The notes beneath the pieces were generated by a model, which made no database searches, was not told where the DNA came from, and saw only the letters and a list, made by a program, of their open reading frames with translations. DNA of 12,554 bases, from the UHGV virus genome UHGV-0141061. One strand, written 5' to 3'. Below, in pieces: positions 1 through 12,554 of the stretch (its first letter is position 1; each line of letters begins with the position of its first letter). The translations under genes were made by a program, and so were the position numbers. Origin of the DNA: a virus.

Positions 1-48
1 TCTACACAGAGTAGATCGTCGGCAGCGTCAGATGTGTATAAGAGACAG
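1..48 (+). other. Illumina Nextera adapter (P5 tail CTACAC, i5 index AGAGTAGA, TCGTCGGCAGCGTC, Tn5 mosaic end AGATGTGTATAAGAGACAG); technical, not biological
   Basis: Read directly: 1-7 tctacac, 8-15 agagtaga, 16-29 tcgtcggcagcgtc, 30-48 agatgtgtataagagacag; its reverse complement is at 12508-12554. Confidence 0.9.
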
Positions 49-602: not shown

Positions 603-1667
603 TTAGTAAGAGATAGGTATTTCTCCTGTAGAGAAGTTGCCTGCTGCACCTTCCCTGCTGCATAAAGCGAACTTCTTATCAACCACATCCCTTGAGTCTG
701 TAGCAATAATTTCATGGCAAATATTATTTGCAGATCTGTGCACGAATGTATTTACAACAGGCTTACTGGACGATGTTCCTTTGGCCCTCGTTCCGTCTAT
801 AAGGCAATCAGACACCGACATAAGTCCTGAAACTAGGTTATTGCTTGAATCCCAATCTATCAACGACTTATCAAAATACACGCTTCCTAACATATAGGTT
901 GTCCCTCCGGAGTAACCAACAAACCTGCGCAGCACTCCACCTTCCAGCCTAATATAGCTGCGAGACATTCCAGACGTAAAGTTCATGAAAGTTATGTCCA
1001 TATTGCTCTCAAGACCATAAAGGCATGATGCATACTCATTCAGGTATCCAATATAAGCTAAAACCTTACAACCAATTGATTTCGCAGGTGTCAGTTTGAC
1101 TATTGATATTTCTCTGGAAGTTGAATCATGGTAAGAGATGGCCCACTCAAATCTTGCATTTTTACCATTAAAGGTGCTTCCGGAGAAATCTATAACGCCA
1201 GGCATAATGAAATCACGAATAATGCTATTTTGTGTCTTAAAATTATTTTTAAATGAAACAATGTTAAGTGTGACTGCGTCAGGCCAGTAGATATTTGTAG
1301 ATATAATTACATTTTTTGGCAGATTTAATGCTCTTGGCTGAACAGGGCTACCAGTGGAAACAACATTATCACACCTGCATGTGAAGAGATCTACAAGCCC
1401 AGTTTTGTCCGATGATATTCTTACCGAACCCCCTTTGACAATAAAATCCCCCTTATGCTCTCCATAGTCAGTGCGAATCCCAAAGGGACCAATATCTGAG
1501 TTTATAATCTGCGTTGATTCATCAAAAGCGCCAGTACCAAAAGCCGCGCCATTAATTATCCTGCAATTGTCTATCAAAACCTTAGACGATCCATAATGAA
1601 GATTGAAGCTATCAACAGTGCAATCTCTTACCACAGTGTCACGGCTATAATTACCATCAATAGAACG
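603..1667 (-). CDS. Tailspike, distal (receptor-binding, beta-helix-like) portion; same frame as 1668-2849 but separated from it by TGA at 1668-1670
   Basis: Track ORF 603-1634 starts at GTG; the frame is open upstream to the TGA (linking codons RSIDGNYSRDTV); Gly/Ser/Asn/Thr-rich beta-strand-like sequence; AT-rich. Confidence 0.55.
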   Translation of the reverse strand, partial: RSIDGNYSRDTVVRDCTVDSFNLHYGSSKVLIDNCRIINGAAFGTGAFDESTQIINSDIGPFGIRTDYGEHKGDFIVKGGSVRISSDKTGLVDLFTCRCDNVVSTGSPVQPRALNLPKNVIISTNIYWPDAVTLNIVSFKNNFKTQNSIIRDFIMPGVIDFSGSTFNGKNARFEWAISYHDSTSREISIVKLTPAKSIGCKVLAYIGYLNEYASCLYGLESNMDITFMNFTSGMSRSYIRLEGGVLRRFVGYSGGTTYMLGSVYFDKSLIDWDSSNNLVSGLMSVSDCLIDGTRAKGTSSSKPVVNTFVHRSANNICHEIIATDSRDVVDKKFALCSREGAAGNFSTGEIPISY

Positions 1668-2849
1668 TCACCCTTTCCCAACAACAGTGCTAAAAAAAGA
1701 ATGCTTCAGAGTAAACTCTAGAGTCAATGTGTAGCGAGATTCAGAATCAGGTTGTGTCATCCCCGATGAGCACAAATACCAATTAACACCGTATGTATTA
1801 CTACTACCAAAAATTGCAGAGTTGATGGGTATTACGCCTAAGGTATTATCATAATTAACCCTTACATCAACCATAGACCTTTTGATATCAACAGCCGTGC
1901 CAGTAAACGTCCCTGATAACTTAGGCAATACAATGACAGTCCTTCGCACAGGCAGCTTATATAAAGTACAGATAAGTGAAGAGTTGTATGTATTCTTAAA
2001 TGTATACGCTAAATCACTTCCTTTGGTTAGTAGGTTAACTTCACCTTTGTATTTTGGCGTGAAAGTGCTGCCAAGCAATCGGTACAAGTCAATTTCAGTA
2101 CCAGACATCTTAACTAAGGAATTATCCCATCCAGTGGTTGACTCTGTAAATGTTAGCGCGGAAGTTAGCTCGTTTAATGGATATGCTGATGGTGTAAAAT
2201 CTTTAATGTATGTAGATGCGTCTCTCTCATCAGCATAAACAATCTTACCGCCAGCCAGGTTGAACGTGCAATTGCTGAGATCAAAATCTCCGTATAACGT
2301 TGTCTCTTTGTCGATAGTGAAAGTCAGTGGCATAGTTGAGTAGATTTTCACTGGAGTTCCTTTAAACTCAGCAAAAACAGAATTCAACTGATCGCTATTT
2401 CTTTCACCATCAGCAGCAGCTATATCGTATACAGAAAGCCTGACCTCTAACCCCCCTATTATTTTGTAACCGTCTGGCGAACTAATTTCATCCATGAACC
2501 TTTGCTCAAACTGGTCAGGGTCATACTTCAGCACATTCGGAAAATAGAACTGCTGAGAACCGTACGCATCGTATACAGCCATAGAATGGCCTTGCACAGT
2601 TACGAATTTGGCAATCTGTCCGTTATATACAGGATACCCGCCAGCGTTAATGATGATTGGCTGTGCAACAGGAACGTGAGAACCGTCTTCGTTTTCCACA
2701 TAAACCTGAATCTGGTTTTCAGGATTTACCGGGTCAGTGCCAATTTTACCGATATAAATTTTGCCATTGGCTACGGCTTTAAAAGAACGAGCCATAGTGA
2801 AGAGTTGCGAAGGCATGCTTACCACAACATTTGCGGTGATATCTGACAT
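1668..2849 (-). CDS. P22-type tailspike, N-terminal part including the head-binding domain; ends at an in-frame TGA
   Basis: From ATG 2847-2849 (GGAG 7 nt upstream): [78 protein letters not shown], which closely parallels the P22 gp9 head-binding domain as I recall it. The track's start at 2897 is an upstream in-frame extension. Confidence 0.8.
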
Positions 2850-2937
2850 TTCATTGCTCCAGACGAATGATATGATGCAACCATGATGTGATTGCATACC
2901 GAAATGGTACTATTGAGTATTTATCCAGTAGGTTACG

Positions 2938-3231
2938 ATGCCATTCCACCCAACTGGTGAGGCATCAAGGATGTACAGCAAATACGACGAGGCGCAGTTT
3001 CACTTGAGACTTCCGCATGAACTTCACGCGAAAATTAAACAGCGTGCGAAGATGAATAACAGGTCGCTGAACTCAGAGATAATTGCAGCGATTGAAGAAT
3101 CATTGACTAAACAAAGCTCTGCATCAGTTTACATTGACGATGCAGAGCGTATGGCAGAACAACAATCCGATATGGTAAAGAAAATTGTCTTTGATACGCT
3201 CAAAGAGCTATATAAAAAAGACAGCAGCTAA
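2938..3231 (+). CDS. mnt: Mnt-like ribbon-helix-helix repressor
   Basis: FHLRLPHELHAKIKQRAKMNNRSLNSEIIAAIEESL...DAERMAEQQSDMVKKIVFDTLKELYKK parallels P22 Mnt (FNFRMPMEVREKLKFRAEANGRSMNSELLQIVQDAL...DAERLADEQSELVKKMVFDTLKDLYKK, recalled). An alternative start is ATG 2971. Confidence 0.8.
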   Translation: MPFHPTGEASRMYSKYDEAQFHLRLPHELHAKIKQRAKMNNRSLNSEIIAAIEESLTKQSSASVYIDDAERMAEQQSDMVKKIVFDTLKELYKKDSS

Positions 3232-3238
3232 CTATCAG

Positions 3239-3742
3239 TTACGGAGGATTCCCGATAGGGGGTAAGGGGGTATTTGTATTTATTGTCTTTTGTATATTGT
3301 CTTTTGTGTTTGACTGATTCGGTAAATTGCTTTTTACCGATTTGGTGAAGGTTTGTTTTACCGAATTGGTAAATGTTTTACCGAATCCGTTAACTTTCGT
3401 TTTCCACTCGGAAATGTTTGTATTCATACCAACTTGACGCCCCACCTGAATGAGAACTCCCATTCTGATAAGCTCGTTTTTGGCGGTAGAGCATTTGGTT
3501 GGTGCCATGCCAGTGAGTTCAGCGAACTGTTCGTTTCCGATCCAATCTATTTTTTTGTTGTAACCGTATGTCTTGCGCCACACAGCCATAACAATCAGTA
3601 ACTGATGTAGAGTAAGTCCAGAAAGCATGGCGGCTTCTAACAGTGTGTTTGCAGTCCGAGTGTAGCCATCTTCGAGTTCTGCCACGCGATGCTCCACGAC
3701 CTCCAGTTGAGGCCTGTAATCAGCTAACTTAACGACGCCCAT
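3239..3742 (-). CDS. Replication initiator O-like protein, N-terminal (iteron-binding) domain only; C-terminal domain absent
   Basis: DGYTRTANTLLEA..LTLHQLLIVMAVWRKTYGYNKKIDWIGNEQFAELTGMAPTKCSTAKNELIRMGVLIQ..NISEW parallels the lambda O N-terminal domain (recalled). AGGAG lies upstream of ATG 3740-3742. The ORF ends at TAA 3239-3241 just after the iteron and A+T-rich segment, where lambda O continues for about 130 more codons. Confidence 0.7.
   Translation of the reverse strand: MGVVKLADYRPQLEVVEHRVAELEDGYTRTANTLLEAAMLSGLTLHQLLIVMAVWRKTYGYNKKIDWIGNEQFAELTGMAPTKCSTAKNELIRMGVLIQVGRQVGMNTNISEWKTKVNGFGKTFTNSVKQTFTKSVKSNLPNQSNTKDNIQKTINTNTPLPPIGNPP
3318..3393. repeat. ori-like iteron array inside the O-like gene
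   Basis: Three direct 18-bp repeats TTTTACCGA(T/A)TTGGT(G/A)AA at 3332-3349 and 3356-3373 and TTTTACCGAATCCGTTAA at 3376-3393, plus an inverted partial copy ATTCGGTAAA at 3318-3327; an A+T-rich segment follows at about 3270-3317, arranged as in lambda ori. Confidence 0.5.
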
Positions 3743-3890
3743 GTTTCACTCCTGCTTTGGCTAGTCTGTAAACACCAACAAGGCGCTCTGCGAACGCCCT
3801 GTTATTTGCTGCGGCTACCACTAATCCCTCAGGTGAATCAGGGTGTCGAATCTCTTCTTTTTCCTGGTATTTCTTACGACGTTTTGTCAT
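3729..3890 (-). CDS. Small basic hypothetical protein (53 aa) between cII and O, overlapping the O-like start
   Basis: ATG 3888-3890 with AGGAG 7 nt upstream; MTKRRKKYQEKEEIRHPDSPEGLVVAAANNRAFAERLVGVYRLAKAGVKHGRR; stop TAA 3729-3731 overlaps the O-like start codon in another frame. Below the track's size cut-off; no homolog recognised. Confidence 0.3.
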   Translation of the reverse strand: MTKRRKKYQEKEEIRHPDSPEGLVVAAANNRAFAERLVGVYRLAKAGVKHGRR

Positions 3891-3900
3891 AATTACTCCT

Positions 3901-3976
3901 GTAGATTGATCCAGTAATTCCCTCAGAATTGCATATCAATTTGCTTAAAATCCTCGGTGGCGGCCGGGGATTTTTT
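3901..3976 (+). ncRNA. oop: OOP-like antisense RNA, antisense to the 3' end of cII, with intrinsic terminator
   Basis: gtagattgatccagtaatt..ctcagaa..tcctcggtggcggccgggga+TTTTTT parallels lambda OOP RNA (GUUGAUAGAUCCAGUAAUGACCUCAGAA...CGCUCGGUUGCCGCCGGGCGUUUUUU, recalled); hairpin 3952-3969 followed by a T-tract 3971-3976; a candidate -10 CATAAT is at 3888-3893. Confidence 0.5.
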
Positions 3977-4219
3977 CTTTGTGATTCCATCCAATGCATA
4001 CTTAAAAGCCCTGCTAATCGGACTGATGTCTGATGCCATTCCGAAAGCACACAAGACCGAAGCAATAAACCTCCAGTCCGTTCTGCTTATCTTCGATTCA
4101 TGACAGCCAATCATCTTTGCCAGACCGCGCTGGGTAAGCGTTGACAGGTTGATGAGTAAATCAGTTTCAGCGCGATCAATTTCTCGCTGTGTTGGCTTGC
4201 TATAACTTGCTTGTGTCAT
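3923..4219 (-). CDS. cII: CII-like transcriptional activator
   Basis: C-terminal ..KISRTDW..ITKKKSPAATEDFKQIDMQF parallels lambda CII ..QISRWKRDW..LTNKKRPAATERSEQIQMEF; position downstream of cro. Confidence 0.85.
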   Translation of the reverse strand: MTQASYSKPTQREIDRAETDLLINLSTLTQRGLAKMIGCHESKISRTDWRFIASVLCAFGMASDISPISRAFKYALDGITKKKSPAATEDFKQIDMQF

Positions 4220-4303
4220 TTGTTAATTTTCCAATAGTGAATAGTTAGTTGAAAGGTATGCGTGGAAACGCATATGGCCTTAGTTGGTCAGATATCTTGG
4301 GGC

Positions 4304-4349
4304 TCGCTTTGTCAGCGACGTAGGACGAATGTCCATTGTGAAAAGAGCG
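4304..4349 (-). promoter_or_regulatory. nutR-like site: boxA CGCTCTTTT and P22-type boxB hairpin TCGCTGACAAAGCGA
   Basis: On the - strand just downstream of the cro stop: boxA-like at 4341-4349, boxB stem-loop at 4304-4318 (5-bp stem, GACAA loop). The spacer is about 22 nt, longer than in lambda. Confidence 0.45.
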
Positions 4350-4356
4350 GTGTTAC

Positions 4357-4557
4357 TTATGCAGTTGTTTTTTTGTTACTTGGGAAGGGCTTTATTTCTT
4401 CCGCATAAACGCTTCCATCAGCGTTTATAGTTAAAAAAATCTTTCGGCCTGCATGAATGGCCTTGTTAATCGCGCTTTGATATACGCCGAGATCTTTAGC
4501 CGTCTTGGTTTGCCCAAAGCGTATTGCATAATCTTTCAGGGTTATGCGTTGTTCCAT
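4357..4557 (-). CDS. cro: Cro repressor, near-identical to lambda Cro
   Basis: 66 aa [66 protein letters not shown]; differs from recalled lambda Cro at about 2 residues; AGGAGG precedes the ATG. Confidence 0.95.
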
Positions 4558-4581
4558 ACAACCTCCTTAGTACAGGCAACC

Positions 4582-5371
<790 letters not shown>

Positions 5372-5402
5372 TTGTTTTATTTTTCACGTAATAGGATGAT
5401 TT

Positions 5403-5744
5403 ATGACACAATTTCAACTTGCATTAATCGCTAGAGAAGTTGATGGAGAAGTCATCCATCTTCGCACCAAAGACGGATACATCAATGCCACCGCGATGTG
5501 CAAGTCTGCGGGGAAGCTACTTGCTGACTATACACGACTAAAAACAACACAAGATTTTTTTGATGAATTATCACGCGATATGGGGATTCCCATATCGGAG
5601 TTAATTCAATCATTTAAAGGCGGAAGAGCAGAGAATCAAGGGACTTGGGTTCATCCAGACATCGCAATTAATTTAGCTCAGTGGCTATCTCCAAAATTTG
5701 CAGTGCAAGTATCGAGATGGGTGCGTGAGTGGATGTCAGGTTAA
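5403..5744 (+). CDS. KilA-N domain protein (113 aa) immediately downstream of cI, in the position of lambda rexA
   Basis: AGGA 6 nt upstream of ATG 5403; GYINATAMCKSAGK...GTWVHPDIAINLAQWLSPKFAVQVSRWV is the characteristic KilA-N pattern; same strand as cI. Confidence 0.7.
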   Translation: MTQFQLALIAREVDGEVIHLRTKDGYINATAMCKSAGKLLADYTRLKTTQDFFDELSRDMGIPISELIQSFKGGRAENQGTWVHPDIAINLAQWLSPKFAVQVSRWVREWMSG

Positions 5745-5783
5745 AGAGCGCCTGCCGAACTCCCTATCCACCTTAAGCGGTAT

Positions 5784-6162
5784 ATGACAAACCGAGGCAG
5801 AGTTCCTCATACGCACTTTTCTATGCTTAATGAACTGACGTTTAACTTGGTTGCGCCACTTGAACAGGCCGGATATACGCTGCCAGAAAAAATGGTCCCT
5901 GATATTTCAGAGGGTAGGGTTTTCTCGCAATGGCTCCGTGACAACCGGGGGGTTGAGCCGAAGACATTCCCAACATATAACCATGAGTACCCAGATGGCC
6001 GGACATTCCCGGTACGTCTATACCCAAACGAATATTGCAGATTTCAAACAATACTTCAACGAAGTGTGGCTGCCTCAGTACGCTCCTAAATATTTTGCTG
6101 AACGAGACCAAAGGGCATTGACGTTGATTGAGAAAATCATGCTACCTGACCTTGATTCCTAA
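5784..6162 (+). pseudogene. Hypothetical protein with a broken reading frame (+1 shift between two overlapping ORFs 5784-6089 and 5851-6162)
   Basis: Frame 1 ...FPTYNHEYPDGRTFPVRLYPNEY and frame 2 ...NIADFKQYFNEVWLPQYAPKYFAERDQRALTLIEKIMLPDLDS both look protein-like and switch near 6020-6040; frame 1 is also in frame with the upstream KilA-N ORF across TAA 5742-5744; weak ribosome-binding site. Confidence 0.4.
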
Positions 6163-6170
6163 ATGTTATT

Positions 6171-6196
6171 CCCGGCCACAGAGCCGGGTTTTCTTT
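6171..6196 (+). terminator. Intrinsic terminator ending the cI operon
   Basis: CCCGGC-cacaga-GCCGGG stem-loop followed by TTTTCTTT, 8 nt after the stop at 6160-6162. Confidence 0.7.
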
Positions 6197-6348
6197 GCCT
6201 CACGATCCCCCTCACCCAAGAACACATAACCAATTGTATCTATTTGAAAATAAATAGATACAACTCACTAAACATAGCAGTTCAGATCTCTCACCTACCA
6301 AACAATGCACCACTGCAAAAAATAAATTCATATAAAAAACATACAGAT

Positions 6349-6410
6349 AACCATCTGCGGTGATGAATTATCTCTAGCGGTGTTGACATAAATACCACTG
6401 GCGGTGATAC
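6349..6410 (+). promoter_or_regulatory. Lambda-type left operator OL3 (6349-6365), OL2 (6369-6385), OL1 (6393-6409) with PL (-35 TTGACA 6382-6387, -10 GATACT 6405-6410)
   Basis: aaccatctgcggtgatg, tatctctagcggtgttg, taccactggcggtgata and the PL hexamers read directly; near-identical to lambda OL/PL. Confidence 0.9.
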
Positions 6411-6479
6411 TAAACACATCAGCAGGACGCACTACTCACCAGGGCGGTGAATATACAACGATTCAAATATGAATCTACG

Positions 6480-6494
6480 GCGCTGACAAAGCGC
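6480..6494 (+). promoter_or_regulatory. nutL-like boxB hairpin GCGCTGACAAAGCGC (P22 type)
   Basis: Perfect 5-bp stem with GACAA loop about 65 nt downstream of PL; matches the P22 boxB-left sequence as I recall it; no clear boxA upstream. Confidence 0.5.
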
Positions 6495-6557
6495 AATAAC
6501 CAAAGTGAACTTTGGGGTGAATGCAGAAGCTAACCTTCTCGGCGGAGGCGCTTTGCA

Positions 6558-6758
6558 ATGATTACGCTAAGCGAAATGCTTCGCTCATATAAACCAGATG
6601 AACACACTAAGGACGCTATCGACTGGCTGGAAGATGATGACTGTAACTATCAGGAAAAAGCCGCTGAATGGTTCTGGGATGCAATAACCGAAAGAGTTAA
6701 GGCTGAATATGCCTTCGCAATATTCAAACGCAGACACATTTTTGGAGAAGCTGCATGA
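6558..6758 (+). CDS. Small acidic hypothetical protein (66 aa), first gene of the PL operon
   Basis: GGAGG 9 nt upstream of ATG 6558; stop overlaps the next start (ATGA at 6755-6758), implying translational coupling; no homolog recognised. Confidence 0.5.
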   Translation: MITLSEMLRSYKPDEHTKDAIDWLEDDDCNYQEKAAEWFWDAITERVKAEYAFAIFKRRHIFGEAA

Positions 6759-7090
6759 GCAATATCGTTGAATTCGTTAAACAGCAGGAGCAGTTATTCT
6801 GCGGAGCATTGACTGAACAGACGGTGACATGGGCTAAGGAAAGCCAGTTTGCAATTCAGTATTTCCAGAAAAACGATTACCTGGCTAAAACAGCACTGGC
6901 AAATCCAACCAGCGCACAGAACGCCATCATCAATGTTGCGGCGATCGGCATCACCTTAAACCCGGCCAGCAAACTGGCTTATCTGGTTCCTCGCGACGGC
7001 ATGGTGTGCCTTGATATCAGTTACATGGGATTACTTCATCTTGCGCAATCGACAGGATCAATTAAGTGGGGGCAATGCAAACTGGTGTAA
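6755..7090 (+). CDS. RecT/Red-beta-family recombinase, N-terminal fragment (truncated)
   Basis: ..NAIINVAAIGITLNPASKLAYLVPRDGMVCLDISYMGLLHLAQSTGSI.. follows the conserved RecT core pattern (E. coli RecT ..IVQCSQLGLEPGSALGHAYLLPFG..IIGYRGMIDLARRSGQI.., recalled) but stops at 111 aa where full-length proteins have about 270. Confidence 0.5.
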   Translation: MSNIVEFVKQQEQLFCGALTEQTVTWAKESQFAIQYFQKNDYLAKTALANPTSAQNAIINVAAIGITLNPASKLAYLVPRDGMVCLDISYMGLLHLAQSTGSIKWGQCKLV

Positions 7091-8274: not shown

Positions 8275-8466
8275 ATGACCGATACCAGCCTGATTCCTGA
8301 GAAAGAAGTGATGAACAAGCTCGGTGTTTCATCACGTCAGACAATCTGGAACTATACCAAACGGCACGGATTTCCGAAGCCAGTCAGAACCCACCCCAAA
8401 TCATACCTTCGTGAAGCTGTTGAAGGGTGGATTCTTAACGGTGGCGTTAATCAGAAATGCTCCTGA
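8275..8466 (+). CDS. AlpA/Xis-family DNA-binding protein (excisionase or regulator)
   Basis: GGAGA upstream of ATG 8275; ..MNKLGVSSRQTIWNYTKRHGFPKPVRT..YLREAVEGWI is the AlpA-type winged-helix pattern; lies beside the integrase; its 3' end overlaps the integrase 3' end by 20 bp. Confidence 0.8.
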   Translation: MTDTSLIPEKEVMNKLGVSSRQTIWNYTKRHGFPKPVRTHPKSYLREAVEGWILNGGVNQKCS

Positions 8467-8920
8467 TGTGCCAGAACAATTTATCAGCGTGAAGCTCATA
8501 CGCTTTGCGCTGAGCCTCTATCCAATCGAGTTTATTGTATACGGACATTATCCCGCCAAGTTCATGACCGAGCATTCGCTCAGTAACATGAGGCTCGACA
8601 TTCATCTCGGACAGCCGTGTAACAAGCGTTCTTCTGAAATCATGTGTTCGCCAGTAACCTAGGTCCATCCCTCCCCTTATTCTATTTACGAATCGGTTGG
8701 CTGCAGCGATGCTGATCGGTTTGTTTATGTCTTCTCCAGGGAAAAGAACATCATTGTACGTTGTCATGGCCTTTTCGAGGAAAGGCTTAATTTGTTCGAA
8801 GATTGGACGGCGGATAACATTACCCATCTTGCTATGCTCTTTCGGTACGGTCCATACGTTGTCCAGCAGGTCAAATTCTGTCTTTATTGCCAGCCTAAGT
8901 TCTGAGAGCCTCGCCCCCAC
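8447..8920 (-). pseudogene. Tyrosine integrase (P4 type), C-terminal catalytic fragment
   Basis: ..GARLSELRLAIKTEFDLLDNVWTVP..HDFRRT..LGHELGGIMSVYNKLDW.. shows the catalytic R/H-x-x-R/Y region; its frame differs from the central fragment at a C5 run (8914-8918). Confidence 0.8.
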
Positions 8921-9136
8921 AGCATAAGCATCTGATGAAGTAGCTTATTTGACGTAGACGCACGGCTTCTTTCAATAGCAAGCCAAATCTTAGCCAGTTC
9001 GTGATACGACAGTACCCGATCCCCTACCTCAGCGCGGGAGCCGAAGTCCCTTGGTTGGATGCTCATAATTGCGCAACTATCTATCAACTGACGCCGCATG
9101 CACCAACTAATTGCTGATCTTAGTTGACTTAGCACC
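8884..9136 (-). pseudogene. Tyrosine integrase, central fragment between the IS insertion and the frameshift
   Basis: In frame with the N-terminal fragment once the IS and one target duplication are removed (1341 bp, a multiple of 3); ends at a stop 8884-8886 created by the frameshift. Confidence 0.6.
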
Positions 9137-9200
9137 TGATGTAGCCCCCTGAAACACCAGACAGTAGCTGTATCTCCAGATAAGAGATAGGCTTGAATAT

Positions 9201-9596
9201 ATGTCTAACACTAACACCAATATTGAGATGACCGGGATCCTGTTAGGGCAAGAAGTCCGTAAACGTAAAACTCCTCAGGAGAAGATCGCCATTATCCAGC
9301 AGACGATGGAGCCGGGTATGAATGTCTCCCATGTCGCCCGCCTGCATGGTATCCAGCCCAGCCTGCTGTTTAAGTGGAAGAAGCAATATCAGGAAGGCAG
9401 CCTCACCGCCGTTGCGGCTGGAGAGGAAGTCGTTCCTGCTTCTGAGCTTACTGCTGCTCTGAAGCAGGTCCGGGAGCTTCAGCGCCTTCTGGGCAAGAAG
9501 ACGATAGAAGTTGAGATCCTAAAAGAAGCCGTGGAGTACGGTCAGTCGCGAAAATGGATAGCGCACGCGCCCTTGTTGCCAAAGGACGGGGAATAG
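9201..9596 (+). CDS. IS3-family transposase OrfA (helix-turn-helix and leucine zipper)
   Basis: ..[78 protein letters not shown].. resembles IS2 OrfA. Confidence 0.85.
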
Positions 9597-10435
9597 CCAT
9601 GGTCAGCCGGACCATGGGCGTGTCGCGTGCGCAACTGTCACTGCGGATTAACCGTTCTGCCGACTGGCAGGACAGGCGCTGTAACCGGCGTAATGAAGAA
9701 GCAGACGCAGAAATACTGTCGGCTATCCTCAACATTATCAGCGATATGCCGAGTTATGGTTATCGACGCGTGTGGGGCATCCTGCGCAAGCAACGTCGCA
9801 CAGAGGGACAGCCACCTGTGAATGCCAAACGGCTTTACAGGATAATGAGCGAGCATAACCTGTTGTTGTTGCATCACAAACCAGAGCGACCGAAGCGTGA
9901 ACATAAGGGCAAGATAGCGGTGGCAGAAAGCGATATGCGCTGGTGTTCAGATGGCTTCGAGTTCGGCTGCGACAACGGCGAAAAACTGCGGGTAACGTTC
10001 GCGCTGGACTGCTGCGACCGTGAGGCCATAGACTGGGCAGCAAGCACGGGAGGCTATGACAGTTCGACCGTGCAGGATGTGATGCTGAGGTCGGTGGAAA
10101 AGCGCTTCGGCGACAGGCTGCCGGAAACACCAGTGCAGTGGCTGACGGACAACGGTTCAGCATATACCGCGCATGAAACGCGGAGGTTCGCCAAAGAGCT
10201 GAATCTGGAGCCATGTACAACAGCGGTGAGCAGCCCGCAGAGCAATGGCATGGCCGAACGGTTCGTGAAGACGATGAAGGAAGACTATATCGCGTTCATG
10301 CCGAAACCGGATGTGAGAACAGCCCTGCGGAACCTTGCAGCGGCGTTCACGCATTACAATGAAAATCACCCGCATAGTGCGCTGGGATATCACTCTCCGA
10401 GAGAATACCGGCGGCAGCGGGCATCGTTAACTTAA
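9554..10435 (+). CDS. IS3-family transposase OrfB (DDE catalytic domain), in the -1 frame relative to OrfA
   Basis: ..[92 protein letters not shown].. is a DDE integrase-core pattern resembling IS2 OrfB; overlaps orfA by 43 nt. Confidence 0.85.
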
Positions 10436-10472
10436 GATACAAAAGCTGTCCGGAAATGGCGGGTCAAGATCA

Positions 10473-10965
10473 GCACCTGCCTTGCTCGGCGTGGATTATC
10501 TTTTTCTTCTTCGGTAAGCAGGTCAACCCATTGCTTAACCGTGATAGAAGATGCCGGACGATTAGGGAAGGCGTCATGCATGCGCTTCATAACCGTTGAT
10601 CGGTAAAGTGCCTGGGTCTTTTCTCTGAGAGTTGTAGAGACGTAGTTGTCGAACCAGTAGTCGAGACACTGGGCGACCGTCATGGAGTTCTCCACCTTCT
10701 CTTCAAAATAGGTGCGTGGATCCGTTCCTGAGAAATAGAGCTTCCGCAAGTCAGCAGTGATCTGTCTGGCATCCTTCAAAGACAGGGATGGGTATCGACC
10801 AAGCCCAAGTCGTTTAGGCTTGCCATACCAGCGATAGCGGTACTGGAACTGGATGACCCCCTTCGGTGAAATTCGTACGCTGAGGCCATCGGCATCAGCC
10901 ACTTCTTGTGGGCCCGAATATGGTTTACCATAAATAGTACGCAGTTTTGTGTCGCTTATAGCCAT
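10473..10965 (-). pseudogene. Tyrosine integrase (P4 type), N-terminal fragment upstream of the IS insertion
   Basis: MAISDTKLRTIYGKPYSGPQEVADADGLSVRISPKGVIQFQYRYRWYGKPKRLGLGRYPSLSLKDAR is the characteristic N-terminal arm-binding domain of P4-type integrases; the track ORF continues 13 codons into the IS before stopping. Confidence 0.8.
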
Positions 10966-12507: not shown

Positions 12508-12554
12508 CTGTCTCTTATACACATCTGACGCTGCCGACGATCTACTCTGTGTAG
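12508..12554 (-). other. Illumina Nextera adapter, reverse complement of 2-48; technical
   Basis: ctgtctcttatacacatct gacgctgccgacga tctactct gtgtag read directly. Confidence 0.9.

What the first reader, a model, noticed from the sequence alone, without database searches (positions are those of the whole stretch)
5372..6196. Cassette in the rexAB slot: KilA-N protein plus a frame-broken ORF, expressed with cI and closed by its own terminator
In lambda the genes between cI and OL are rexA and rexB, a lysogen-expressed exclusion system. Here that slot holds a 113-aa KilA-N domain ORF and a downstream ORF of about 125 codons with a +1 frame break. The two are in the same frame across TAA 5742-5744, so the ancestral gene may have been a single protein of about 250 aa (KilA-N plus C-terminal domain) now carrying a nonsense codon and a frameshift. 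This is a classic position for prophage-encoded anti-phage or lysogenic-conversion functions, and I do not recognise the C-terminal region.
Basis: partly seen in the sequence, partly recalled or inferred. Interest (0 to 1): 0.65.

Follow-up and report, generated by a model that had tools for sequence, protein, structure and literature searches.

The report
Broken BstA phage-defence gene beside cI
The stretch after the lambda-type repressor gene is an inactivated copy (one stop codon plus a 2-base deletion) of a 253-residue protein of the BstA family of prophage abortive-infection defence proteins, so it is a dead copy of a known kind of gene in a known hotspot.

Summary
Window 5403-6162 is one ancestral 253-codon gene broken by a GAA->TAA change at 5742 (codon 114) and a 2-bp deletion after 6034. 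Intact alleles (E. coli ML35, phage PhiR5_2) differ from the window at only four other-wise trivial positions.

The intact protein is a canonical KilA-N DNA-binding domain plus a BstA_C domain. It matches PHROG 6287 (BstA abortive infection) full length at E 1.8e-82. It is a divergent relative of BstA of Salmonella prophage BTP1, which occupies the same slot downstream of cI.

The lesions are not sequencing errors. The exact 825-bp allele occurs in independent complete genomes and in 10 of 10 sampled contexts, inside a shared 2.9-kb lambda-immunity module with differing flanks.

One correction: the terminator (6171-6188) is not the cassette's own. It is the conserved immunity-region terminator shared with lambda, HK97 and BTP1.

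The window's prophage is a deletion remnant, so the gene is most likely a dead defence gene. At most it yields a free 113-residue KilA-N domain.

A modest twist is that TAA114 lies in the interdomain linker and occurs on at least two allelic backgrounds. This subfamily has not been tested experimentally in anything I found. Interest is low to moderate.

The parts
4658..5371 (+). Lambda-immunity cI repressor gene (237 aa, intact), presumed to supply the PRM transcript that runs into the cassette
   Evidence: ORF list. 96% nt identity to lambda cI and 99% to E272 cI. Annotated as a LexA family protein in identical modules.
5372..5402 (+). 31-nt leader of the cassette with Shine-Dalgarno AGGA (5393-5396). 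It is the left mosaic junction with lambda and the expected position of a cognate aba element, if there is one.
   Evidence: Homology to lambda and E272 ends at 5371/5372. The leader is conserved with the gene behind other repressors (H6, DY612, Enterobacter L024). No aba-like terminal direct repeat was found.
5403..5744 (+). N-terminal fragment of the bstA-like pseudogene: a 113-codon KilA-N domain ORF ending at the premature TAA
   Evidence: Pfam KilA-N E 1.7e-27. PHROG 6287 profile positions 6-121, E 4.3e-28. The exact product P0121 is on at least 1000 contigs.
5742..5744 (+). Lesion 1: nonsense codon TAA where intact alleles have GAA (Glu114). It lies in the predicted interdomain linker.
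   Evidence: Alignments. The AlphaFold model has low confidence at residues about 112-120 between the two domains.
5745..6034 (+). Middle of the pseudogene (codons 115-211 of the intact gene) in the original frame: linker plus the first part of the BstA_C domain
   Evidence: ORF 5784-6089 maps to PHROG 6287 positions 164-253 (E 6.6e-30) and to the PADLOC BstA model positions 160-226 (E 4.3e-12).
6034..6035 (+). Lesion 2: site of the 2-bp deletion (TC/CT missing between GAATA and TTGCAG), shifting the last 42 codons into another frame
   Evidence: Alignment A1 columns 664-665. Haplotype table columns 633-634.
6035..6162 (+). Last 42 codons of the BstA_C domain plus the natural stop TAA (6160-6162), now out of frame
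   Evidence: ORF 5851-6162 residues 53-102 map to PHROG 6287 positions 245-301 (E 4.4e-09). Translation of the intact allele.
6171..6196 (+). Rho-independent terminator (CCCGGC-CACAGA-GCCGGG plus TTTTCTTT). It is the right mosaic junction, shared with lambda (after rexB), HK97, E272 and BTP1 (after bstA).
   Evidence: Terminator scan. Fold of -12 kcal/mol, z -2.2. Homology to lambda, HK97, E272 and BTP1 starts at 6171-6173.
6383..6411 (+). PL promoter within the OL operator region (context: end of the cI-to-PL slot)
   Evidence: Promoter scan TTGACA-17-GATACT. 91% identity to the lambda OL/PL region.

Best explanation
Window 5403-6162 is a pseudogene of a bstA-family prophage defence gene. It sits in the moron slot between cI and the immunity-region terminator/PL of a lambda-immunity module.

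The intact gene (253 aa) encodes an N-terminal KilA-N (APSES-like) DNA-binding domain and a C-terminal BstA_C domain joined by a flexible linker. By homology with BstA of Salmonella prophage BTP1, the intact protein would be made in the lysogen from the cI transcript. It would associate with the replicating DNA of a superinfecting phage, block phage DNA replication and abort the infection. A short cognate DNA element (aba) at the 5' end of the gene would spare the prophage's own lytic growth. These steps are inferred, not shown.

In this window the gene is dead. TAA at codon 114 cuts the protein in the linker, and a 2-bp deletion frameshifts the last 42 codons of BstA_C. At most a free 113-aa KilA-N domain is produced.

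The null allele was not created in this decayed prophage. It travels with a 2.9-kb cII-cro-cI-PL module (window 3712-6569) that recombines among many lambdoid and P22-like prophages.
For: Lesions and intact homolog
- Intact 253-aa homologs sit in the same position after cI in E. coli ML35 and phage PhiR5_2. There are 15 further E. coli genomes at 99.4% identity.
- Only two disabling lesions separate them from the window.

Family assignment
- PHROG 6287 'BstA abortive infection system' matches full length at E 1.8e-82. BstA-BTP1 itself hits the same PHROG at 2.1e-150.
- The PADLOC BstA model gives E 2.5e-20.
- Precomputed Pfam PF26567 (BstA_C) plus PF04383 (KilA-N) is on all 120 listed homologs.
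- BLASTP against BstA-BTP1 gives 29% identity over residues 133-251, E 5e-15.
- hhalign gives probability 97.8% and is collinear over 186 columns, including part of the N-terminal domain.

Structure
- The AlphaFold model (pLDDT 91.3) has two domains and a linker.

Synteny
- cI followed by a bstA-type gene followed by the terminator is seen in BTP1, E272 and Proteus phage vB_BPM-V3.
- The 29-bp terminator is shared with BTP1.

Lesions are real and widespread
- The identical allele is in 10 of 10 sampled contexts with different flanks.
- The index lists the 113-aa product in 1970 blocks of the collection.

Mechanism of the family
- Taken from Owen et al. 2021 (PMC8585504).
Against: - No member of this short subfamily (canonical KilA-N, 253 aa) was found to have been tested experimentally in the papers searched. 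Defence activity is inferred from about 29% identity in one domain to tested proteins.
- The PADLOC BstA model aligns only to the C-terminal half.
- No aba-like terminal direct repeats flank the start codon.
- Expression from PRM was not measured.
- The 113-aa ORF is intact and very common, so a residual function is not excluded.
Confidence: 0.88

Rival explanations
1. The truncation is not simple decay. The free 113-aa KilA-N domain, or a split KilA-N plus BstA_C pair in alleles carrying only TAA114, is retained because it does something. It might bind the cognate aba or phage DNA and act as a decoy or dominant-negative against BstA-like proteins of other lysogens, or as a regulator.
For: - TAA114 falls exactly in the interdomain linker.
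- It occurs on at least two nucleotide backgrounds: GGT-TAA in the window lineage, and GGC-TAA in E. coli H6/H5 and metagenome contig L040.
- It also occurs in a Klebsiella protein variant.
- The H6 and L040 alleles keep an otherwise uninterrupted C-terminal reading frame.
- The 113-aa product is on at least 1000 contigs, comparable to the intact alleles at 924 and 670.
- Owen et al. note natural homologs that have only the N-terminal or only the C-terminal domain.
Against: - Many other disruptions of the same gene exist at other positions: products of 69, 81, 93, 144 and 175/176 aa, and a 1-bp deletion in L041. That is the pattern of general loss of function.
- There is no convincing ribosome-binding site before the downstream ATGs at 5784 and 5826.
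- The window allele has a second lesion in the C-terminal half.
- The alleles are mosaic, so recombination or homoplasy at the adjacent synonymous site 5741 can explain the shared TAA without selection.
- The double-lesion allele is nearly invariant, consistent with recent hitch-hiking on a successful immunity module.
Confidence: 0.08
2. The stop codon and frame break are sequencing or assembly errors in an intact gene.
For: The window comes from a short-read assembly that still carries Nextera adapter sequence at both ends. Strain 81 carries additional small indels in this gene and in cI that may be assembly noise.
Against: The identical 825-bp sequence with both lesions is in two independent complete genomes, in three metagenome contigs and in 10 of 10 sampled contigs from different projects. 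The lesions are not in homopolymer runs.
Confidence: 0.01
3. The KilA-N protein is not a defence protein. It would be a phage regulatory or host-killing protein of the KilA/Bro/antirepressor type that happens to lie next to cI.
For: KilA-N domains occur in P1 KilA, in Bro-type proteins and in antirepressors. PHROG 129 'transcriptional regulator' also matches the N-terminal domain (E 8e-24). RefSeq calls the protein only 'KilA-N domain-containing protein' or 'DNA-binding protein'.
Against: The C-terminal domain is specifically BstA_C and not an ANT, Bro-C or KilA-C domain. The full-length best match is the BstA PHROG. The position and orientation downstream of the repressor are the hallmark of BstA loci.
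Confidence: 0.04

Closest known systems
BstA of Salmonella prophage BTP1 (ST313-td, STMMW_03531; Owen et al. 2021, PMC8585504), with the tested homologs BstA-Ec and BstA-Kp
   Same: - Two-domain layout: a KilA-N-type N-terminal domain plus BstA_C.
- Same PHROG (6287) and same PADLOC model.
- Same position and strand immediately downstream of the prophage repressor, before PL/N.
- The same 29-bp terminator follows the stop codon.

   Different: - The ancestral protein is shorter: 253 aa against 307 aa.
- Only 29% identity, confined by BLASTP to the C-terminal domain.
- The N-terminal domain is a canonical Pfam KilA-N, whereas BstA-BTP1 and the E272 BstA score no Pfam KilA-N hit.
- No CCCGCC-type terminal direct repeats of an aba element around the start codon.
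- The window copy is inactivated by a nonsense codon and a frameshift.
Canonical 301-aa BstA in E. coli E272 (WP_042111333.1, 'BstA C-terminal domain-containing protein')
   Same: It occupies the identical slot behind the same cI protein (WP_021568302.1) in a P22-like prophage at sbcB. The flanks are 99% (cI side) and 95% (terminator/PL side) identical to the window.
   Different: It is a different cassette: 42% identical to BstA-BTP1 but only 22% identical (E 1e-4) to the window's ancestral protein. It is intact.
Lambda rexA-rexB
   Same: Positional and functional analogue. It is a lysogen-expressed abortive-infection cassette between cI and the same terminator/OL-PL region, with the same mosaic junctions at 5371/5372 and 6171.
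   Different: There is no sequence similarity between the cassettes. RexAB is a two-protein sensor and membrane-channel system (as summarised in PMC8585504), not a DNA-binding single protein.
APSES / KilA-N DNA-binding domains (yeast Mbp1, fission-yeast Bqt4)
   Different: Those are eukaryotic transcription or telomere-tethering factors. Only the DNA-binding domain is shared.

Membership tests
BstA prophage abortive-infection family | C-terminal BstA_C domain | tested here: met
   - PADLOC BstA model: E 2.5e-20 on residues 120-237 of the intact allele.
- The window fragments hit the same model at 4.3e-12 and 8e-4.
- Precomputed Pfam PF26567 (BstA_C) is on the homologs.
- BLASTP to BstA-BTP1: E 5e-15.
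BstA prophage abortive-infection family | N-terminal KilA-N(-like) putative DNA-binding domain, collinear with the C-terminal domain | tested here: met
   - Pfam KilA-N: E 8e-27.
- hhalign to BstA-BTP1 covers residues 67-279 of BstA, probability 97.8%.
- PHROG 6287 matches full length: E 1.8e-82.
BstA prophage abortive-infection family | Gene located directly downstream of, and co-oriented with, the prophage repressor gene | tested here: met
   There is a 31-nt gap after the cI stop, on the same strand, and PL follows. The same arrangement is seen in ML35, PhiR5_2, the Proteus phage, BTP1 and E272.
BstA prophage abortive-infection family | Uninterrupted open reading frame encoding both domains | tested here: not met
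   TAA at codon 114 (5742-5744) and a 2-bp deletion after 6034. The window holds a pseudogene of a family member, not a functional member.
BstA prophage abortive-infection family | Cognate anti-BstA (aba) DNA element overlapping the 5' end of the gene. In BTP1 it is 63 bp, from -29 to +34, with terminal CCCGCC direct repeats. | tested here: inconclusive
   The BTP1 repeats were recovered (CCCGCCA at -28 and +28), and an analogous ATCCCT pair was found in E272 at -34 and +23. No comparable repeat flanks the start codon in the window or in its intact alleles. aba elements are cognate and sequence-diverse, so absence of this motif proves nothing.
BstA prophage abortive-infection family | Abortive-infection phenotype: block of phage DNA replication and co-localisation with phage DNA | not testable with these tools
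   This needs plaque, survival and microscopy assays as in PMC8585504.
Lambda RexAB exclusion system | Homology to RexA or RexB | tested here: not met
   blastn of window 4300-6600 against the lambda immunity region aligns only 4343-5372 and 6171-6450. The cassette itself has no match. No Rex families appear in the Pfam or PHROG hits.
KilA / Bro / antirepressor proteins (KilA-N plus ANT, Bro-C or KilA-C) | KilA-N domain combined with one of those C-terminal domains | tested here: not met
   KilA-N is present, but no ANT, Bro-C or KilA-C domain was detected. The C-terminal domain is BstA_C.

The most novel reading that the evidence does not exclude
The premature stop at codon 114 is a recurrent or selectively retained event. 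It would convert a BstA-like abortive-infection gene into a stand-alone KilA-N DNA-binding protein, optionally with a separately translated BstA_C. That protein could work as a decoy or dominant-negative that shields the carrier phage from BstA-like defences of other lysogens. Alternatively, it could simply remove a costly suicide function while keeping a regulatory DNA-binding activity. If so, the slot would hold a defence gene turned counter-defence or regulator, spreading with the lambda immunity module.
Probability: 0.08. Interest if true: 0.6.

Novelty: new member of a known kind. Interest (0 to 1): 0.25.

Why it matters
It matters little as a discovery. The family (BstA), its position next to the repressor and its role as a lysogen-expressed abortive-infection defence were described in 2021, and databases already carry models for it.

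Three points have some value:

1. **Annotation.** The 113-aa 'KilA-N domain-containing protein' and the adjacent 'hypothetical protein' found in many Enterobacteriaceae assemblies are halves of one dead bstA-like gene.
2. **An untested subfamily.** The short, highly conserved form (KilA-N plus BstA_C, about 250 aa) has 2748 homologs at E <= 1e-5. Relatives 55-70% identical are named by their sources from Vibrio, Shewanella, Paraburkholderia, Rhizobium, Neisseria and others. I found no experimental test of it, and it is a compact candidate for working out how BstA_C acts.
3. **Population genetics.** A null allele of a defence gene is about as common as the intact one and rides on a recombining immunity module. 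That bears on the cost and turnover of prophage-borne abortive-infection genes.

Tried and rejected
- **Sequencing error.** Rejected: identical lesions occur in many independent assemblies.
- **Cassette-specific terminator.** Rejected: the hairpin belongs to the conserved flank shared with lambda, HK97, E272 and BTP1.
- **aba-like element around the start codon.** A search for direct repeats spanning it recovered the published BTP1 repeats but nothing comparable here.
- **Known RNA families.** Rfam found none in the whole window at gathering thresholds.
- **NCBIfam.** No model matches the intact protein. The local Pfam copy lacks BstA_C, so only KilA-N was reported. The BstA_C name came from precomputed annotations.
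- **Base composition.** The cassette is not distinguishable from its flanks.
- **Literature.** Searches for later mechanistic work on BstA, or for phage PhiR5_2, found nothing beyond Owen et al..
- **Programmed recoding.** Considered and rejected. It would need both readthrough of TAA and a frameshift at a non-slippery GAATATTGC site.

Full report
**1. What is in the sequence**

The window carries a lambda-immunity region in reversed lambda orientation:
- cII at 3923-4219 (-);
- cro at 4357-4557 (-);
- cI at 4658-5371 (+, 237 aa);
- PL/OL around 6383-6411.

- 5403-5744, 113 aa;
- 5784-6089, 101 aa, in the same frame as the first;
- 5851-6162, 103 aa, in the next frame.

The first ORF is a clear KilA-N domain (Pfam E 1.7e-27). 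A six-G-C-pair hairpin followed by TTTTCTTT sits at 6171-6196.

**2. The ancestral gene and the lesions**

Megablast against 5,426 complete E. coli genomes found 139 genomes with the region. Two are 100% identical and 15 are 99.4% identical with a match two bases longer.

In E. coli ML35 and in phage PhiR5_2 the region is a single 762-nt gene for a 253-aa 'KilA-N domain-containing protein' (WP_000191544.1). It lies 31 nt downstream of cI.

The alignment shows four differences from the window:
- G->T at 5742, turning GAA (Glu114) into TAA;
- loss of two bases (TC/CT) after 6034, at codons 211/212;
- a synonymous change at 5411;
- His218->Tyr at 6052.

**3. Not an artefact**

- The same 825 bp with both lesions occur in complete genomes EC2641 and 1008S19.
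- They occur in metagenome contigs L026, L027 and L031.
- They occur in all 10 contigs returned for the 113-aa product.
- That product is indexed in 1970 blocks of the collection and counted on at least 1000 contigs. The two common intact alleles are on 924 and 670 contigs.

The ten contexts share window 3712-6569 at 99.6-99.9% identity, or 4466-6569 in two of them (L016, L022), which carry a shorter shared stretch. They diverge on both sides. Replication genes are DnaB-type or O-type. The PL operons carry N, Nmad5, RecT, Erf or nothing. The null allele is thus a fixed passenger of a recombining cII-cro-cI-PL module, not a product of local decay.

**4. Identity**

- The intact protein matches PHROG 6287, 'BstA abortive infection system, replication inhibitor', over its whole length (E 1.8e-82).
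- BstA of Salmonella prophage BTP1 matches the same PHROG (E 2.1e-150). The three window fragments map to consecutive parts of the profile: 6-121, 164-253 and 245-301.
- The PADLOC BstA model matches residues 120-237 (E 2.5e-20).
- All 120 listed homologs carry precomputed Pfam PF04383 (KilA-N) plus PF26567. The contig annotation names PF26567 as BstA_C.
- Direct BLASTP to BstA-BTP1 gives 29% identity over residues 133-251 (E 5e-15).
- Profile comparison extends the collinear alignment into the N-terminal domain (probability 97.8%).
- An AlphaFold model of an 86%-identical homolog (pLDDT 91.3) shows two compact domains joined by a low-confidence linker at about 112-120.

Canonical BstA proteins (BTP1 at 307 aa, E272 at 301 aa) score no Pfam KilA-N hit. 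The window's lineage is therefore a distinct, shorter subfamily with a canonical KilA-N domain.

The subfamily is large and well conserved:
- 2748 homologs at E <= 1e-5;
- about 55-70% identity to relatives that their sources name from Vibrio, Shewanella, Paraburkholderia, Rhizobium, Neisseria and others;
- many invariant residues.

**5. The slot**

blastn against lambda, HK97, E272 and BTP1 places the left junction at the cI stop (5371/5372). It places the right junction at 6171, the first base of the terminator stem.

Lambda-immunity phages carry different cassettes between these junctions:
- rexAB in lambda;
- hicAB in mEp234 and HK106;
- gp48/gp49 in HK97;
- a canonical 301-aa BstA in E. 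coli E272;
- the 253-aa BstA-like gene here and in PhiR5_2.

The terminator belongs to the conserved flank. Even BTP1 has the same 29 bp right after bstA. So 'its own terminator' is the one part of the title that needs correcting.

**6. How it works: shown and inferred**

For BstA-BTP1, BstA-Ec and BstA-Kp, Owen et al. (PMC8585504) reported the following:
- high expression of bstA-BTP1 in the lysogen;
- co-localisation with infecting phage DNA;
- a block of phage DNA replication;
- abortive infection;
- a DNA-based cognate self-immunity element (aba).

The aba element is 63 bp, from -29 to +34 of bstA-BTP1, with terminal CCCGCC repeats.

For the window's family, only homology, domain architecture and synteny are shown here. 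The defence function of the intact 253-aa protein is inferred.

Co-transcription with cI is inferred from the 31-nt gap, the AGGA Shine-Dalgarno sequence at 5393-5396, and the absence of a terminator or promoter-like site between the genes.

I recovered the BTP1 repeats and a similarly placed ATCCCT pair in E272. I found nothing equivalent around the start codon here, so an aba element is neither shown nor excluded.

In the window the protein cannot be made. Translation stops in the linker, the downstream ATGs (5784, 5826) lack a convincing ribosome-binding site, and the last 42 codons are out of frame.

**7. The prophage**

The surrounding element is a remnant:
- a P22-type tailspike gene broken in two (603-2897, -);
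- mnt/arc (2938-3231);
- a truncated replication O gene abutting it (3239-3742);
- no N gene after PL;
- a RecT fragment (6755-7090);
- an integrase split by an IS3-family element (about 9140-10440);
- sbcB at the right end.

Compared with L015, the PL operon from N to upstream of recT is deleted.

**8. A loose end**

TAA114 also occurs without the 2-bp deletion on a different nucleotide background (GGC-TAA). It is found in E. coli H6/H5, behind a different repressor, and in metagenome contig L040, behind a lambda-type cI. A Klebsiella protein variant also ends at residue 113.

Adjacent sites 5741 and 5742 show all four combinations. That requires recombination between neighbouring bases, or a repeated mutation at one of the two sites. 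The alleles are visibly mosaic.

The same gene is also broken at other places in other isolates: products of 69, 81, 93, 144 and 175/176 aa, and a 1-bp deletion in L041. The overall picture is therefore frequent loss of function of an abortive-infection gene.

A retained role for the free KilA-N domain cannot be excluded, but nothing here requires it.

**9. Verdict**

The object is an inactivated member of the known BstA family, from an untested short subfamily, in the known cI-PL moron slot. Interest is low to moderate.

Noticed in passing
window 30-48 (-) and 12508-12526 (+): Exact Nextera transposase adapter sequence (CTGTCTCTTATACACATCT) sits near both ends of the window. Bases 1-29 and 12527-12554 are probably library artefact rather than genome.
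   Followed up: partly
window 5741-5742; L011:1530-2291 (E. coli H6); L040:1554-2315: The same GAA->TAA nonsense at codon 114 occurs on a second allelic background (GGC-TAA), without the 2-bp deletion and behind a different repressor. A Klebsiella 113-aa variant also exists. Adjacent sites show all four haplotypes, so recombination or recurrent mutation is needed.
   Followed up: partly
L009:6441-6504 (E. coli E272, canonical 301-aa bstA): A direct repeat ATCCCT lies at -34 and +23 relative to the bstA start codon. It mirrors the geometry of the BTP1 aba terminal repeats (CCCGCC at -28 and +28), so it is a candidate cognate aba element for that variant.
   Followed up: no
window 603-3742: A P22-type tailspike gene is split into two ORFs (1668-2897 head-binding part, 603-1634 C-terminal part), followed by mnt/arc (2938-3231). 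This directly abuts a truncated replication O gene (3239-3742). All late genes of the prophage are deleted.
   Followed up: partly
window 6450-7090: PL is not followed by an N gene or nutL. Relative to contig L015, the stretch from N to just upstream of recT is missing. What follows is a 66-aa ORF (6558-6758) and a 111-aa RecT N-terminal fragment (6755-7090).
   Followed up: partly
window 8447-10965: The tyrosine integrase gene next to sbcB is interrupted by an IS3-family insertion sequence (two overlapping transposase ORFs, 9201-9596 and 9554-10435). The integrase fragments lie at 8447-9135 and 10432-10965 (-).
   Followed up: no
window 3712-6569: This 2.9-kb block (end of a small ORF, cII, cro, cI, the bstA pseudogene, OL/PL and leader) is 99.6-99.9% identical in most of the ten sampled prophages that differ on both sides. 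Two of them (L016, L022) share only window 4466-6569. It behaves as a discrete mosaic module, with sharp junctions near 3712 and 6569.
   Followed up: partly
L005:3501-4274; L013:2468-3241: An 86%-identical paralogous form (257 aa) is present in 117 E. coli genomes and in three vB_EcoS phages. There it does not follow an annotated repressor: it lies near hokD or DUF551/replication genes. The subfamily is therefore not strictly tied to the cI slot.
   Followed up: no
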